DNA from: an uncultured Candidatus Saccharibacteria bacterium
GTDB lineage: Bacteria; Patescibacteriota; Doudnabacteria; UBA920
DNA length: 64,000 nt
Direction of reading: 5' to 3'
Assembly: GCA_964524915.1 (NCBI GenBank)
Contig: CAZGEB010000002.1
Span: 5,094-69,093 of the forward strand
The position numbers and the translations under genes were made by a program. A model generated the notes under the pieces. It was not told where the DNA came from and made no database searches. It saw only the letters and a program-made list of their open reading frames with translations. The first letter of the stretch is position 1. Each line of letters begins with the position of its first letter. This document shows, piece by piece, positions 27,165-63,827 of the stretch.

Positions 27165-27211
27165 ATAAATTTAGTATATACCTATATACCAATAAAACAA
27201 AACCCCGAGCT

Positions 27212-27493
27212 TTAAGCCTCTGGGGTTGTAGTTTGTTCTGTACCTGAATTTACAATGGCACTAATTTTTGCAATTTCTTCTTCTGTCCTTCTCATGCCCT
27301 CCACAGCGTATGCCAAGATTTGACCTGACACTGTATCCGACAAGCCTTCTGCCAGCAAGGCCTCCACCAGCATCCTCTGCACGGTCTGGTCCTCTACACA
27401 TTCAAATATTAAATGAACAATATCTTGAATAGCAGGACTCACCAAAGGCTTACTCTGCATTGCCATGTGCCCCCCGCTCATTATTAACTGCAT
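27212..27493 (-). CDS. hypothetical protein; possibly the 3' part of a longer gene split at a poly-G tract
   Basis: A 43-aa upstream ORF in another frame (MEVGKENVMNNEERLHELEIKLSAFQRLINAVNNE...) joins this ORF at the C6/G6 tract at 27470-27475. Confidence 0.35.
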   Translation of the reverse strand: MQLIMSGGHMAMQSKPLVSPAIQDIVHLIFECVEDQTVQRMLVEALLAEGLSDTVSGQILAYAVEGMRRTEEEIAKISAIVNSGTEQTTTPEA

Positions 27494-27639
27494 TTATCAA
27501 TCTCTGAAAAGCTGACAGTTTAATTTCCAATTCATGTAATCTTTCCTCATTATTCATAACATTTTCTTTTCCCACTTCCATATATATTTTTCCTTTGTTT
27601 ATATATTAATTAAATTTTTAATTTATTTACTAATTTTCA

Positions 27640-38672: not shown

Positions 38673-38957
38673 TTATCTTATAACGCCTTCATCAAACCTT
38701 TTAATAATACTTTCAAGCTTCGCAATCACATTCCTCATAACATCCTTACTTGTTGGATTAGCACCTCTTCCCAAATTTTGATTCAATTCTACAACATACT
38801 TCTTATGCAAATTAAAGGCTCTAGCGGCTCTTGAATCATTTGGCAATACCCCTTGATAAAATTCTTTTATACGAGACTCCAAAGTATCAACCAAACCATT
38901 TAAATCATTGAGAAGTTGGTCATATGTCGCCCCCCCTTCTTGTTTTTCTCCTGGCAT
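38673..38957 (-). CDS. hypothetical protein (contains a G7/C7 homopolymer near the N-terminus)
   Basis: 94-aa ORF between rpsO and pnp. C7 run at 38930-38936 encodes EGGA. Confidence 0.4.
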   Translation of the reverse strand: MPGEKQEGGATYDQLLNDLNGLVDTLESRIKEFYQGVLPNDSRAARAFNLHKKYVVELNQNLGRGANPTSKDVMRNVIAKLESIIKRFDEGVIR

Positions 38958-61189: not shown

Positions 61190-63070
61190 TTACACTTCTA
61201 TAATCACCGGTAAGACCATGGGTCTACGATTGGTTTTGTGGAAGAGATACTCGCCCACTTGATCGCGAATCAAATTTCTGAGATAAGCAGAACCAGGCTC
61301 ATTAGCATCTTTAGGCTTCGCACCTTTCACTTCACAAGTCTTTCGTACTTCATGCTTGATCTCGCGGATGATATCTTCATTGCCCTTCATATAAATGAAG
61401 CCTCTAGAGACAATATCCGGCAAGTTGATTAGTTTTCCTGTGTGATGATCTATGGTAGTAATGATCACTACCATACCATCTTTTGCCATGACTTGGCGGT
61501 CCCTCAAAACCACTTCTTCTACATCCCCCACGCCAAGACCATCTACAAAGACATAACCAGCCTCCACTTTGTCATCCAAAAGTTTGGCTGAGCCGTCGCT
61601 GCGAATTTCTAGGACAGAGCCGTTATCCATCACAAAACAATTTTCTTGTGGTATGCCCACACTTTGCGCCAGCTTAGTATGCGCCACCAGCATGTGGTGT
61701 TCACCGTGAATTGGCACGAAGTATTTAGGTTTTACCAACCCAAACATCATTTTCAATTCTTCTTGCTGACCATGACCAGAAGAGTGAATATCTAGAACTT
61801 TATTATAAATCACATTGGCGCCCTGTCGAGTCAAATTGTCCAAGACCTCCACAATAGAGCCTTCATTGCCAGGAATTGGAGAAGAAGACAAAACTACAGT
61901 ATCACCTTGCTTGATCTTCACAATCTTGTGCTCGCCGCGGGACATTCTGGCCAAAGCAGACATTTCTTCACCTTGGGAACCAGTTGTCAAAACTACCAAT
62001 TGATTGTCTGGATACCTAGAAGCTGCTTCTGATTTAATAAAAATCTTCGGCTGGATCCTGAGGTAGCCCATAGACAAAGCAATTTCTATGGCGTTGACCA
62101 TACTTCTTCCAGTCACAATAATCTTACGATTATGCTTGGCAGCAGCATCACAAACTGATTGGATACGAGAAAGCAGTGATGAGAAAGTTGCTACTATCAT
62201 ACGAGATTTGGCATCTTGCATGATTCTATCAATCACATTTGCTAATTCTTTTTCACTCACACAGTATCCAGGCTTTTCAGCGTTGGTGGAGTCACCCATG
62301 AAAAGTATTACACCTTCGCCGCCGTACTTGGCAATCTTGTCAAATTCAGTTGGTCTTTGGTCAGTTGGTGTGTGGTCAAATTTCCAGTCAGTTGCGTAAA
62401 CTATTTTGCCTATTGGGGTAGAAATTCGGAAACCTACACAGTCTGGAATATTGTGATTCAAGCGGAAAAATTCTACATGAAAAACTCCGAGACTCAAAGT
62501 GTCATCCTTGGTAATAGGATTAACCTTTGCCCTACCCACCATATTAAATTCCTCAAGGCGCTTCTTGATCATAGCAATACTGAGTGGCATGCTATAAATA
62601 GGCGGATCCCCCAATTTTGCCAGCACATAAGGCAAGGCACCAATATGGTCCAAGTGAGCATGAGTCACTAAGATGCCACGAATTTTGTGCTTATTATCTT
62701 CTAAATATTTGGTATTTGGAATGATATAGTCAATTCCAGGAGTAGTTTCGTCTGGAAAATGAAAACCCATATCCACGATAATAATATCGTTACCAAATTC
62801 AAAAGCAGTACAGTTCATTCCCACTTCTTCCACACCACCCAAAGGAATTACCCTCAAAGTATTGCGATTGGTGAGGCCTGCGTGCAAAGTCGCACTAGAG
62901 ACTGGTCTGTCTAGGCCGCCAGCAGTTTTCTGTGTAGGCCTAGTATTTACCCGTCTGGCACTGCGAGTTAAAGGCAGTGGTGGCATTCTACGCTGAGGAG
63001 ACCTCCCCCTCCCATGAGGCTGCGATGGAGATTTTCCTCCTGCAGCAAAAGTATTCTTGTTGAATATCAT
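61190..63070 (-). CDS. rnj: ribonuclease J with ~70-aa Arg/Pro-rich N-terminal extension
   Basis: MBL motif THAHLDHIGALP, beta-CASP and C-terminal domain. N-terminal GRGRSPQRRMPPLPLTRSARR low-complexity extension. Confidence 0.9.
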   Translation of the reverse strand: MIFNKNTFAAGGKSPSQPHGRGRSPQRRMPPLPLTRSARRVNTRPTQKTAGGLDRPVSSATLHAGLTNRNTLRVIPLGGVEEVGMNCTAFEFGNDIIIVDMGFHFPDETTPGIDYIIPNTKYLEDNKHKIRGILVTHAHLDHIGALPYVLAKLGDPPIYSMPLSIAMIKKRLEEFNMVGRAKVNPITKDDTLSLGVFHVEFFRLNHNIPDCVGFRISTPIGKIVYATDWKFDHTPTDQRPTEFDKIAKYGGEGVILFMGDSTNAEKPGYCVSEKELANVIDRIMQDAKSRMIVATFSSLLSRIQSVCDAAAKHNRKIIVTGRSMVNAIEIALSMGYLRIQPKIFIKSEAASRYPDNQLVVLTTGSQGEEMSALARMSRGEHKIVKIKQGDTVVLSSSPIPGNEGSIVEVLDNLTRQGANVIYNKVLDIHSSGHGQQEELKMMFGLVKPKYFVPIHGEHHMLVAHTKLAQSVGIPQENCFVMDNGSVLEIRSDGSAKLLDDKVEAGYVFVDGLGVGDVEEVVLRDRQVMAKDGMVVIITTIDHHTGKLINLPDIVSRGFIYMKGNEDIIREIKHEVRKTCEVKGAKPKDANEPGSAYLRNLIRDQVGEYLFHKTNRRPMVLPVIIEV

Positions 63071-63280
63071 TTCTTTTTCTTAATTATCTATCCTAAAGGC
63101 GAAAACAAACACGCGAAATTACTGTGAATAAAAAAGTAATTATGCGAAGACAAAATTAATCGCAAGCAAAATGCTTTTCAAATTTTTATGTCTTGAAATA
63201 AAGTCTGAAAAAATCAGAGCCTATTCGCCAATATACCCAAGTGTACTTAAAATAAATACACTTGAAATACTCACGAAAAA

Positions 63281-63561
63281 TTATTTTTCTTTTTCAATAT
63301 CTATGACTGGACCATCGATTTGTTTCGGTTCTTGGACTTTTGAAATCCTTGCAAAAGTCTCTTTAAAAAGGGCTCCTTCTCCATCCAATACTGGACCCAC
63401 AACAACAGCGTCACCATGAACCAATACCACCCCCCATCAGGAGATAATATTCTGCCAGATTTTATAACCACAATCTCAGAATTAGTACCGCCTGGGGAAA
63501 TTATTCCTGGTTCACTTGTTAATTTTTTAAGCATAAAACTATTTTTTAAACTCAGCAACAC
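63281..63561 (-). pseudogene. beta-helix (bactofilin-like) small gene split by a frameshift at a C6/G6 tract
   Basis: Frame A MLKKLTSEPGIISPGGTNSEIVVIKSGRILSPDGG and frame B VLVHGDAVVVGPVLDGEGALFKETFARISKVQEPKQIDGPVIDIEKEK* join at 63430-63435. Either a true frameshift, phase variation or a homopolymer sequencing error. Confidence 0.3.
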
Positions 63562-63666
63562 TGGCGAAAATAAACCGCCCTAGATTCCCAAAACAACACC
63601 GCCCCTCCCCCACAACCTTGCGACTATATGTACCTTCGCCCAGCACTTTCCACAGCTTTAAGCTCT

Positions 63667-63740
63667 TGGTGCTCACGGGGAGAGTCGAACTCCCACGACC
63701 TTGCGGTCACCCAGACTCAGAGTCGGGGCGTATCTGCCAA
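63667..63740 (-). other. tRNA-like 3' fragment (T-arm + acceptor 3' strand + CCA) with non-canonical 5' half
   Basis: Reverse complement ends ...GGGAGTTCGACTCTCCC-CGTGAGC-A-CCA. The 5' region (TTGGCAGATACGCCCCGAC...) cannot pair with the acceptor 3' strand and lacks a D-arm. Contains a GACC-GCAA-GGTC hairpin. Confidence 0.3.
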
Positions 63741-63827
63741 TGGTGGGCGTGGAGAGACTCGAACTCTCACGAGATTGCTCCCATACGCACCTGAAGCGTA
63801 CGTGTATACCAATTTCACCACACGCCC
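63741..63827 (-). tRNA. tRNA-Leu (anticodon CAG), class II, CCA encoded
   Basis: Reverse complement GGGCGTGTGGTGAAATTGGTATACACGTACGC-TTCAGGT-GCGTATGGGAGCAATCTCGTGAGAGTTCGAGTCTCTCCACGCCCACCA. Confidence 0.85.

What the first reader, a model, noticed from the sequence alone, without database searches (positions are those of the whole stretch)
27454..27493. C6 tracts at frame junctions of two split genes (27470-27475 and 63430-63435)
At both sites an upstream ORF in one frame runs into a downstream ORF in another frame exactly at a CCCCCC run. The first joins MEVGKENVMNNEERLHELEIKLSAFQRLINAVNNE to the 27212-27493 ORF. The second joins MLKKLTSEPGIISPGG...SPDGG to ...VLVHGDAVVVGPVLDGEGALF..., which looks like a bactofilin-type beta-helix protein. 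A one-base change restores single ORFs of about 135 and 90 aa. This is phase variation, programmed frameshifting or homopolymer sequencing error.
Basis: seen in the sequence. Interest (0 to 1): 0.5.

Follow-up and report, generated by a model that had tools for sequence, protein, structure and literature searches.

The report
Two poly-G frame junctions, different causes
Of two six-G runs lying where one reading frame meets another in an uncultured Doudnabacteria genome, one is just the boundary of two separate overlapping small genes, and the other is a real one-base frame break in a strain-specific orphan gene in a hypervariable spot next to a tRNA gene; neither is a sequencing error.

Summary
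Both C6 runs exist at the stated coordinates. The genes are on the minus strand, so each tract is G6.

**Site 1 (27470-27475): not a split gene.**
- A strain about 95% identical (L001) has no G run there. It reads GGGCAAGTGGAGG instead.
- L001 still keeps a 44-aa upstream ORF and an identical 84-aa downstream ORF, in the same two frames with the same 17-nt overlap.
- The indel between the strains is 3 nt, so the upstream ORF stays in frame.
- This is an overlapping small-gene pair. The G run may act as a ribosome-binding site (GGAGG in L001).

**Site 2 (63430-63435): a genuine frame break.**
- Codon usage is gene-like in one frame up to the tract and in the -1 frame after it.
- The continuation of the first frame looks out of frame.
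- A TGA in the second frame just before the run pins the switch to the tract.
- Five assemblies all show G6, so this is not a sequencing error.
- The gene is an orphan with no bactofilin or other family match.
- It sits in a 327-nt cassette between tRNA-Leu and RNase J that is replaced by unrelated sequence in sister strains. One replacement carries an intact 76-aa ORF. Another carries an ORF broken at a G9 run.

The most likely reading of site 2 is a fixed frameshift in a fast-turnover orphan gene. Phase variation is not excluded.

The parts
27470..27475 (-). Site 1 G6 tract. It lies inside the 3' end of ORF A, 3 nt upstream of the first ATG and 9 nt upstream of the second ATG of ORF B. It is a possible Shine-Dalgarno-like element.
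   Evidence: It is identical in L002 and L004-L007 (the L003 contig begins inside the run) and is replaced by GGGCAAGTGGAGG in L001.
27450..27581 (-). ORF A: a 43-aa, coiled-coil-like small protein that evolves fast.
   Evidence: Codon score 0.36, in the top 0.6% of spurious open stretches. L001 keeps it open as 44 aa with an in-frame 3-nt indel and the same stop codon. Only weak coiled-coil/SlyX-type hits.
27212..27466 (-). ORF B: an 84-aa helical orphan protein. It overlaps ORF A by 17 nt in the +1 frame.
   Evidence: P0001 is called identically on 7 contigs from 7 samples. Against L001 it has 0 nonsynonymous and 3 synonymous differences. Codon score 0.42, above all 531 spurious stretches. 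AF2 predicts four helices, pLDDT 74. No family or fold match.
27194..27225 (-). Terminator-like hairpin (CCCCaGAG..CTCGGGG) followed by TTTTGTTTT. It spans the ORF B stop codon.
   Evidence: Read directly. The pattern scan did not call it, because the stem has a bulge and the loop is 8 nt.
63430..63435 (-). Site 2 G6 tract. It is the exact point where the coding frame switches by -1.
   Evidence: Frame D has a TGA at 63439-63437, so the switch must lie within the run. It is G6 in five assemblies.
63436..63534 (-). N-terminal half of the broken small gene (frame C, MLKKLTSEPGIISPGGTNSEIVVIKSGRILSPD).
   Evidence: Codon score 0.42, above all 531 spurious stretches.
63281..63429 (-). C-terminal half of the broken small gene (frame D, ORF D; its GTG start is at 63430). 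The last 9 codons and the stop lie in the flank shared with the L170 allele.
   Evidence: Codon score 0.59. P0002 is called on 2 contigs. The shared PVIDI..* tail is read in the same frame in L170.
63301..63429 (-). Continuation of frame C after the tract (WYWFMVTLLLW...). It looks out of frame and is probably not functional coding sequence.
   Evidence: Codon score -0.27; 91% of the spurious open stretches score at least as high.
63309..63635 (-). Strain-variable cassette of 327 nt. Sister strains carry unrelated sequence here, while the flanks stay 97-100% identical.
63667..63738 (-). Truncated tRNA-Leu-like copy lacking the 5' acceptor and D stem, directly downstream of tRNA-Leu.
   Evidence: Not called by ARAGORN or Rfam.
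63741..63827 (-). tRNA-Leu(CAG). It is the conserved upstream anchor of the variable slot.
63238..63264 (-). Conserved hairpin (CAAGTGTA..TACACTTG) just after the small ORF. It marks the start of the conserved RNase J leader.
   Evidence: I7. Conserved in L169, L170 and L172.
61190..63070 (-). RNase J gene. It is the conserved downstream anchor of the slot.

Best explanation
The two tracts have different explanations.

Site 1 is the junction of two real, separately translated small genes in the operon downstream of endonuclease IV.
- ORF A (43 aa, coiled-coil-like) ends 17 nt after ORF B (84 aa, four-helix orphan) begins in the +1 frame.
- ORF B is probably started either by ribosomes terminating at the ORF A stop and re-initiating, or by direct initiation. 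In the second case the G6, which is GGAGG in a sister strain, would serve as the ribosome-binding site 3-9 nt upstream of the ATGs.
- This initiation step is inferred, not shown.

Site 2 is a true one-base frame break at a Gly-Gly G6 run inside a small orphan gene of about 84 aa.
- The gene lies in a 327-nt strain-variable cassette between tRNA-Leu(CAG) and RNase J.
- The break is fixed in the population sampled.
- As written, the gene makes a 77-aa product with an out-of-frame tail, plus at best a 47-49-aa C-terminal fragment from the GTG or TTG start.
- The most likely reading is a recent inactivating, or 'OFF', slippage mutation (G7->G6) in a fast-turnover accessory gene.
For: Site 1:
- Seven contigs from seven samples carry the identical 84-aa ORF B. 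The six that reach upstream of it have a separately called 43- or 44-aa upstream ORF.
- L001 is about 95% identical over this locus (92.7-95.1% across its three aligned segments) and lacks any G run (CGAGGGCAAGTGGAGGCAC). It still ends ORF A at the same TAA, differs by a net 3-nt indel that preserves the frame, and keeps ORF B in the +1 frame.
- ORF B has 0 nonsynonymous and 3 synonymous changes against L001. ORF A has many amino-acid changes but stays open.
- Both ORFs score as coding.

Site 2:
- Codon log-odds are 0.42 before the tract in frame C and 0.59 after it in frame D. Both exceed all 531 spurious open stretches (maximum 0.40).
- Frame C after the tract scores -0.27.
- A TGA in frame D at 63439-63437 confines the switch to the run.
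- G6 is identical in the window, L008/L174, L009, L175 and L176.
- The L170/L172 allele has one intact 76-aa ORF in the same slot. It ends in the shared flank in frame D.
- No intact (G7) version exists among the roughly 15 billion proteins searched.
- The spacer is variable across Doudnabacteria, and no trace of this ORF was found in 159 related loci.
Against: Site 1:
- Shine-Dalgarno-like motifs are rare before long ORFs in this genome (GGAG 1 of 44, AGGA 3 of 44), so the ribosome-binding role of the G6 is only an inference.
- There is no expression data.

Site 2:
- No demonstrable homologue has the two halves in one frame. Similarity to the L170 ORF outside the shared tail is not significant (p about 0.07).
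- A second, unrelated allele (L169) is also broken exactly at a poly-G run (G9). That is an odd coincidence for simple decay and hints at tract-mediated switching.
- ORF D could be translated on its own from the GTG or TTG start directly after the G run.
Confidence: 0.6

Rival explanations
1. Site 2 is a phase-variable contingency gene. Slipped-strand mispairing at the poly-G tract switches the small ORF ON (G7) and OFF (G6), and the sampled populations are in the OFF state.
For: - The frame switch lies exactly at the tract.
- The locus is strain-hypervariable.
- An unrelated allele in the same slot (L169) has a G9 exactly at a frame junction. Its downstream half scores 0.56 and has no nearby start codon, and G8 would fuse the halves into about 80 aa.
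- Runs of 9 or more G/C occur only twice in 1.05 Mb of related loci.
Against: - All five assemblies of the window allele show G6, and no ON-length version exists in the protein collections.
- From general knowledge, G6 is shorter than typical phase-variable tracts (7-8 or more).
- The L169 G9 comes from a single short-read contig whose tract length could be off by one, and it could not be replicated.
- The L170 allele has no G tract.
Confidence: 0.15
2. At site 2 the two halves are independent small genes. ORF D (47-49 aa) starts at the GTG at 63430 or the TTG at 63424, with the G6 as its ribosome-binding site. This would mirror site 1.
For: - ORF D has a very strong codon score (0.59).
- Two gene callers call it on its own.
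- The G6 lies 5 nt upstream of the TTG.
- Site 1 shows the same geometry with a proven two-gene arrangement.
Against: - ORF C would then overlap ORF D by 130 nt with an out-of-frame-looking tail.
- ORF D has no ATG at all.
- Shine-Dalgarno use is rare in this genome.
- The L170 allele covers the slot with a single ORF.
- In the L169 allele the downstream half has no start codon near the tract.
Confidence: 0.15
3. Programmed -1 ribosomal frameshifting or transcriptional slippage at the site 2 G6 produces the 84-aa fusion from the G6 template.
For: The coding signal continues in the -1 frame from the tract. After a -1 slip the A-site GGG re-pairs perfectly.
Against: - In the zero frame the site is U GGG GGG, not X XXY YYZ, so P-site re-pairing is imperfect.
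- The 106-nt stretch around and downstream of the tract folds no better than shuffled sequence (z = +0.52).
- No Rfam element is present.
- From general knowledge, six G is short for RNA-polymerase slippage.
- The L169 allele would need the opposite shift (+1).
Confidence: 0.05
4. One or both tracts are homopolymer sequencing or assembly errors, and the true genome has intact genes.
For: A one-base change restores a single ORF at each site.
Against: - Site 1 is identical in five further complete contigs from five other samples (L002, L004-L007).
- Site 2 is identical in four further assemblies.
- The two sites would need opposite corrections (-1 G and +1 G).
- 44 long ORFs covering 47.7 kb are intact despite 56 A/T runs of 7 or more, and a G7 lies in frame.
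- L001 has the two-ORF layout without any homopolymer.
Confidence: 0.03
5. Site 1 is a single 122-aa gene split by a frameshift, either a pseudogene or needing a +1 frameshift.
For: G6->G5 gives one ORF of 122 aa. Both parts look coding.
Against: - L001 preserves both frames, the ORF A stop and the ORF B ATGs without any slippery run.
- The indel is in frame.
- ORF B is under strong purifying selection, so it must be translated as it stands.
- No fused homologue exists.
Confidence: 0.05

Closest known systems
Translationally coupled, overlapping bacterial gene pairs, with the ribosome-binding site of the downstream gene embedded in the 3' end of the upstream gene
   Same: At site 1 there is a 17-nt same-strand overlap. 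The downstream ATGs lie just upstream of the upstream stop, and a G-rich or GGAGG element sits 3-9 nt before them. The layout is conserved in a diverged strain.
   Different: Both proteins are orphans confined to one species-level lineage. The genome otherwise rarely uses Shine-Dalgarno motifs. Coupling itself was not tested.
Homopolymeric-tract phase-variable (contingency) genes of host-associated bacteria, such as the poly-G/C tracts of Neisseria, Haemophilus and Campylobacter
   Same: At site 2 a poly-G tract encoding Gly-Gly lies inside a small gene, and its length sets the frame. The locus is hypervariable between strains. A second allele carries a G9 at a frame junction.
   Different: The tract has only 6 G. 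No length polymorphism was seen in five assemblies. No ON version is known. The gene has no recognisable surface or modification function. Phase variation was not demonstrated.
Frameshift pseudogenes in accessory islets beside tRNA genes
   Same: There is a single-base frame break at a mutational hot spot. The gene is an orphan with no homologues. It lies next to tRNA-Leu and a truncated tRNA-Leu copy, in a spacer that differs between strains and species.
   Different: No integrase or other mobile-element gene is present. Both halves keep full coding character, so the break is recent, or the halves are still used.
   Same: Only a superficial resemblance: a small, Gly/Val-rich sequence predicted to be rich in beta strands.
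   Different: There is no match to the bactofilin HMM or any other family at E<=1. The exhaustive search gave only summed weak hits to unrelated Ig/cadherin repeat proteins.

Membership tests
Bactofilin (PF04519/DUF583) | Significant match to the bactofilin domain profile | tested here: not met
   hmmscan of the fused 84-aa protein against Pfam-A and NCBIfam at E<=1 gave no families.
Bactofilin (PF04519/DUF583) | Right-handed beta-helix fold | tested here: inconclusive
   The single-sequence AF2 model has pLDDT 36, which is unusable. No alignment can be built, because there are no homologues.
Programmed -1 ribosomal frameshift site | Slippery heptamer X XXY YYZ in the zero frame | tested here: not met
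   The zero frame reads GAU GGG GGG UGG, so the heptamer is U GGG GGG. The P-site tRNA would re-pair to UGG.
Programmed -1 ribosomal frameshift site | Stable stimulatory hairpin or pseudoknot 5-9 nt downstream | tested here: not met
   The 106 nt spanning the site has MFE -24.6 kcal/mol against a shuffle mean of -26.3, z = +0.52. Pseudoknots were not modelled.
Programmed -1 ribosomal frameshift site | Conservation of the shift site and the two-frame layout among homologues | not testable with these tools
   No homologues exist in the collections.
Homopolymeric-tract phase-variable gene | A tract within the coding sequence whose length sets the reading frame | tested here: met
   G6 equals two Gly codons. 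G7 joins the two coding halves. The switch is confined to the run by a TGA in frame D.
Homopolymeric-tract phase-variable gene | Tract-length polymorphism within or between populations | tested here: not met
   G6 in all five assemblies of this allele. Read-level heterogeneity could not be examined.
Homopolymeric-tract phase-variable gene | Tract long enough for frequent slippage (usually 7-8 or more) | tested here: not met
   The window tract is 6. The unrelated L169 allele has 9.
Overlapping, separately translated gene pair (site 1) | Both ORFs kept as separate frames in diverged relatives | tested here: met
   L001: a 44-aa ORF and an 84-aa ORF, same frames, same stop, in-frame 3-nt indel, no homopolymer.
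Overlapping, separately translated gene pair (site 1) | The downstream ORF has its own start codon and a ribosome-binding element | tested here: inconclusive
   Two in-frame ATGs (27466, 27460) are conserved. GGAGG lies 3 nt and 9 nt upstream of them in L001, and GGGGGG in the window. Shine-Dalgarno use is rare in this genome.
Overlapping, separately translated gene pair (site 1) | Direct evidence that both products are made | not testable with these tools
   This needs proteomics or ribosome profiling.
Frameshift pseudogene | The coding signal changes frame at the break | tested here: met
   Codon scores 0.42 / 0.59 / -0.27 against 531 spurious stretches.
Frameshift pseudogene | An intact homologue covers both halves in one frame | tested here: inconclusive
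   The L170 76-aa ORF fills the same slot and shares the last 9 codons in frame D. The remaining similarity is not significant (pairwise blastp E = 7e-5 is driven by the tail; without the tail p about 0.07).

The most novel reading that the evidence does not exclude
The slot between tRNA-Leu(CAG) and RNase J in this Doudnabacteria lineage may be a contingency locus. It holds interchangeable, unrelated small-ORF cassettes of about 80 aa, whose expression would be toggled by poly-G tract length. The window allele has G6 and the DRR274959 allele has G9, each exactly at the frame junction. This would be homopolymer-mediated phase variation in a candidate-phyla-radiation bacterium.
Probability: 0.15. 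Interest if true: 0.5.

Novelty: new member of a known kind. Interest (0 to 1): 0.22.

Why it matters
The main value is for annotation. The result shows that a homopolymer at an ORF junction is not by itself evidence of a broken gene.
- Site 1 should be annotated as two genes.
- Site 2 should be annotated as a frameshifted orphan gene, not as two hypothetical proteins and not as antisense ORFs, which is how JGI called it.

If the poly-G tracts in two unrelated alleles of the same slot reflect switching, this would be a rare pointer to contingency-type variation in ultrasmall, probably symbiotic CPR bacteria. The proteins themselves are orphans of unknown role, so the finding has modest reach as it stands.

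Tried and rejected
- **Family searches.** Pfam, NCBIfam, PHROGs and PADLOC scans of the fused and separate products gave nothing usable.
- **Homology searches.** Word-index searches of both fused proteins and of the L170 ORF returned only self hits.
- **Exhaustive phmmer of the fused site 2 protein.** It gave weak hits to long repeat proteins of three different Ig/cadherin families. I rejected them as summed repeat and compositional matches.
- **AF2.** The fused site 2 protein gave pLDDT 36. ORF B gave a four-helix model, but Foldseek against the PDB found nothing with E<1. The afdb50 library was unavailable.
- **Related loci.** tblastn and blastn of the site 2 ORFs against the related loci fetched by then (79 for tblastn, 159 for blastn) found nothing.
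- **Exact look-ups.** Look-ups of RNase J and of P0003 failed. Going through cluster members worked.
- **L169 G9.** I tried to replicate it in another sample, but that allele occurs on one contig only.
- **Poly-G/C enrichment.** Enrichment in the tRNA-Leu to RNase J spacer of other species was not convincing. Several runs lie in the Pro/Gly-rich RNase J N-terminus or upstream of the tRNA.
- **L169 insertion.** A suspected MITE with terminal inverted repeats in L169 was not confirmed.

Full report
**Observation.** The window is 40.6% G+C. Its RNase J relatives place it in Candidatus Doudnabacteria (Patescibacteria), with the best species representative at 76% amino-acid identity. CCCCCC is present at 27470-27475 and at 63430-63435. 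All the ORFs concerned are on the minus strand, so both tracts read GGGGGG in the mRNA sense.

- At site 1, ORF A (27581..27450, 43 aa) is followed by ORF B in the +1 frame. ORF B is 27493..27212 as an open frame and is called as 84 aa from the ATG at 27466. Removing one G gives a single ORF of 122 aa.
- At site 2, ORF C (ATG 63534..63301, 77 aa) is followed by ORF D (63430..63281, 49 aa, GTG start) in the -1 frame. Adding one G gives 84 aa.

**Chance.** The geometry alone is not remarkable. A homopolymer of 5 or more bases where an open frame of >=30 codons meets another of >=40 codons occurs 140 times in this A/T-rich window, including at ordinary gene boundaries. Of the ten G/C runs of 6 or more, all eight others overlap an open frame that reads straight through them and none looks like a broken gene. 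One of them is a G7 in frame in a 94-aa ORF between rpsO and pnp. Forty-four long ORFs covering 47.7 kb are intact despite 56 A/T runs of 7 or more. The assembly therefore shows no systematic homopolymer problem.

**Site 1.**
- The exact 84-aa ORF B product is encoded on seven contigs from seven samples. The six that reach upstream have a separately called 43- or 44-aa ORF overlapping it by 17 nt.
- Five of these contigs span the tract and are 99.9-100% identical to the window with the same G6. A sixth (L003) begins inside the run.
- The seventh, L001 from DRR274959, is a strain about 95% identical over this locus (92.7-95.1% across its three aligned segments). In place of GAGCGGGGGGCAC it reads CGAGGGCAAGTGGAGGCAC, so it has no homopolymer.
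- The net difference is 3 nt. ORF A stays in frame, ends at the same TAA and becomes 44 aa (…KRGQVEAHGNAE*). ORF B remains in the +1 frame with the same two ATGs.
- ORF B differs by three synonymous changes only. ORF A differs at about 12% of nucleotides, mostly by conservative replacements that keep a heptad pattern.
- Both ORFs score as coding with a codon model trained on the window's long genes. ORF A scores 0.36 and ORF B 0.42, while 531 spurious open stretches have mean -0.05 and maximum 0.40.

A layout kept in two frames without the homopolymer, with an in-frame indel and strong constraint on the downstream product, is what two genes look like, not a broken one.

The G6 sits 3 nt and 9 nt upstream of the two ATGs of ORF B, and L001 has the canonical GGAGG there. 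A ribosome-binding role is plausible. Shine-Dalgarno-like motifs are rare before long ORFs here, and many starts follow TATAAT-like boxes, so I treat that role as an inference. Re-initiation after termination at the ORF A stop is the alternative. A bulged hairpin plus T-run follows ORF B (read; not called). Neither protein has any family, homologue or fold match. ORF B is predicted to be four helices.

**Site 2.**
- The codon model gives 0.42 for frame C from the ATG to the tract and 0.59 for frame D after it. Both exceed every spurious stretch.
- Frame C after the tract scores -0.27, and 91% of the spurious stretches score at least as high.
- Frame D has a TGA two codons before its GTG (63439-63437), so the switch can only occur within the run.
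- The same G6 is present in five assemblies: the window, ERZ4216102 (L008/L174), SRR12487046 (L009), and JGI 3300045330 and 3300045333 (L175, L176). A random sequencing or assembly error is therefore excluded.
- Nothing supports programmed frameshifting. The zero-frame heptamer is U GGG GGG, the surrounding 106 nt fold no better than shuffles (z = +0.52), and Rfam finds nothing.

**What the site 2 gene is.**
- The fused 84-aa protein has no Pfam or NCBIfam match, including bactofilin, and no PHROG or PADLOC match.
- In the word-index search it finds only its own two pieces.
- The exhaustive search of 1.84 billion representatives adds only summed weak hits to repeat proteins of three different Ig/cadherin families. 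I do not regard these as homology.
- AF2 gives pLDDT 36.
- No version with the two halves in one frame exists in the collections.

**Context of site 2.** The order tRNA-Leu(CAG) then RNase J is conserved in eleven of the fourteen relatives scanned for tRNAs, and the tRNA-Leu sequence is found in most of the related loci. The spacer between the two is variable, and none of the related loci searched contains a trace of ORF C or D. A truncated tRNA-Leu-like copy (63667-63738) follows the tRNA.

Through cluster members of RNase J and SecG I recovered the same slot from sister strains.
- **L170 and L172** (two samples). The flanks are 97-100% identical to the window, but the 327 nt at 63635..63309 are replaced by an unrelated 297 nt. 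This segment carries one intact 76-aa ORF, also an orphan. It runs into the shared flank and ends with the same last codons and stop as ORF D (PVIDI..E.*), which means it reads in frame D. Similarity between the fused window protein and this ORF spans the junction but is not significant once the shared tail is removed.
- **L169** (DRR274959). The slot holds a third, longer unrelated insert. It contains a G9 run exactly where a 29-codon frame ends (TGA right after the run) and a 50-codon frame begins. That second frame has codon score 0.56 and no nearby start codon. G8 would fuse the two into about 80 aa. Runs of 9 or more G/C occur only twice in 1.05 Mb of related loci. This allele is on a single contig, so its tract length could not be replicated.

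**Interpretation.**
- Site 1 is an ordinary overlapping gene pair. I put confidence at about 0.85.
- Site 2 is a real frame break at a poly-G run in a strain-specific orphan gene within a high-turnover slot. The simplest reading is a slippage mutation fixed in this population, which makes it a young pseudogene or an 'OFF' allele.
- Independent translation of ORF D from the GTG or TTG just after the G run cannot be excluded.
- The second broken allele at a G9 keeps tract-mediated switching alive as a minority hypothesis.
- Sequencing error, programmed frameshifting and the bactofilin assignment are not supported.

**Literature.** A full-text search for phase variation in candidate-phyla-radiation bacteria returned four papers. 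The only one I opened describes a hypervariable repeat gene in a Gracilibacterium genome rather than homopolymer switching (PMC6851277). I found no prior description of this locus.

Noticed in passing
window 63309-63635; L170 1736-2032; L172; L169 1480-2500: The slot between tRNA-Leu(CAG) and RNase J holds at least three unrelated cassettes in strains whose flanks are 93-100% identical. Each cassette carries a small ORF of about 76-84 aa directed towards RNase J. The L170/L172 ORF contains (ACAAG)x3. L169 also has an extra insertion of about 180 nt just before the RNase J start.
   Followed up: partly
L169 1915-1923: A G9 run lies exactly at the junction of two frames of a small ORF in the DRR274959 allele. 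The downstream 50-codon half scores as coding and has no nearby start codon. G8 would give one ORF of about 80 aa. Only one contig carries this allele, so the tract length could not be checked.
   Followed up: partly
window 63667-63738 (-): A truncated tRNA-Leu-like copy, running from the D-loop to the CCA end and lacking the 5' acceptor and D stem, sits directly downstream of tRNA-Leu(CAG). It is 76% identical to the 3' 38 nt of its neighbour and closer to second tRNA-Leu-like copies in other Doudnabacteria (L059, L012). ARAGORN and Rfam do not call it.
   Followed up: partly
whole window (starts of 44 long ORFs): Shine-Dalgarno-like motifs are almost absent upstream of long ORFs (GGAG 1 of 44, AGGA 3 of 44). 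Many ATGs are preceded within about 5-15 nt by TATAAT/TATACT-like boxes, which suggests frequent leaderless or very short-leader mRNAs.
   Followed up: partly
window 27212-27466 (-), ORF B: There are two independent but individually insignificant hints of resemblance to the sigma-54 core-binding domain. One is NCBIfam PRK12469 positions 119-189 at E = 0.0057. The other is the top Foldseek PDB hit 2k9l at E = 1.3 for a four-helix AF2 model with pLDDT 74.
   Followed up: partly
window 38930-38936 (-): The longer of the window's two G7 runs on the minus strand lies in frame (E-G-G-A) within an intact 94-aa orphan ORF (38673..38957) between rpsO and the PNPase gene.
   Followed up: yes
L175 735-1147, L176 727-1139 (window 63171-63583, + strand): The JGI annotation of the site 2 region calls two antisense ORFs of 55 and 82 aa on the opposite strand instead of ORF C and ORF D. 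The codon scores favour the minus-strand reading.
   Followed up: partly
L012 2228-3205: In a related species the tRNA-Leu to RNase J spacer holds a 325-aa ORF flanked by repeated tRNA-fragment-like sequences. This fits the site being an integration hot spot.
   Followed up: no
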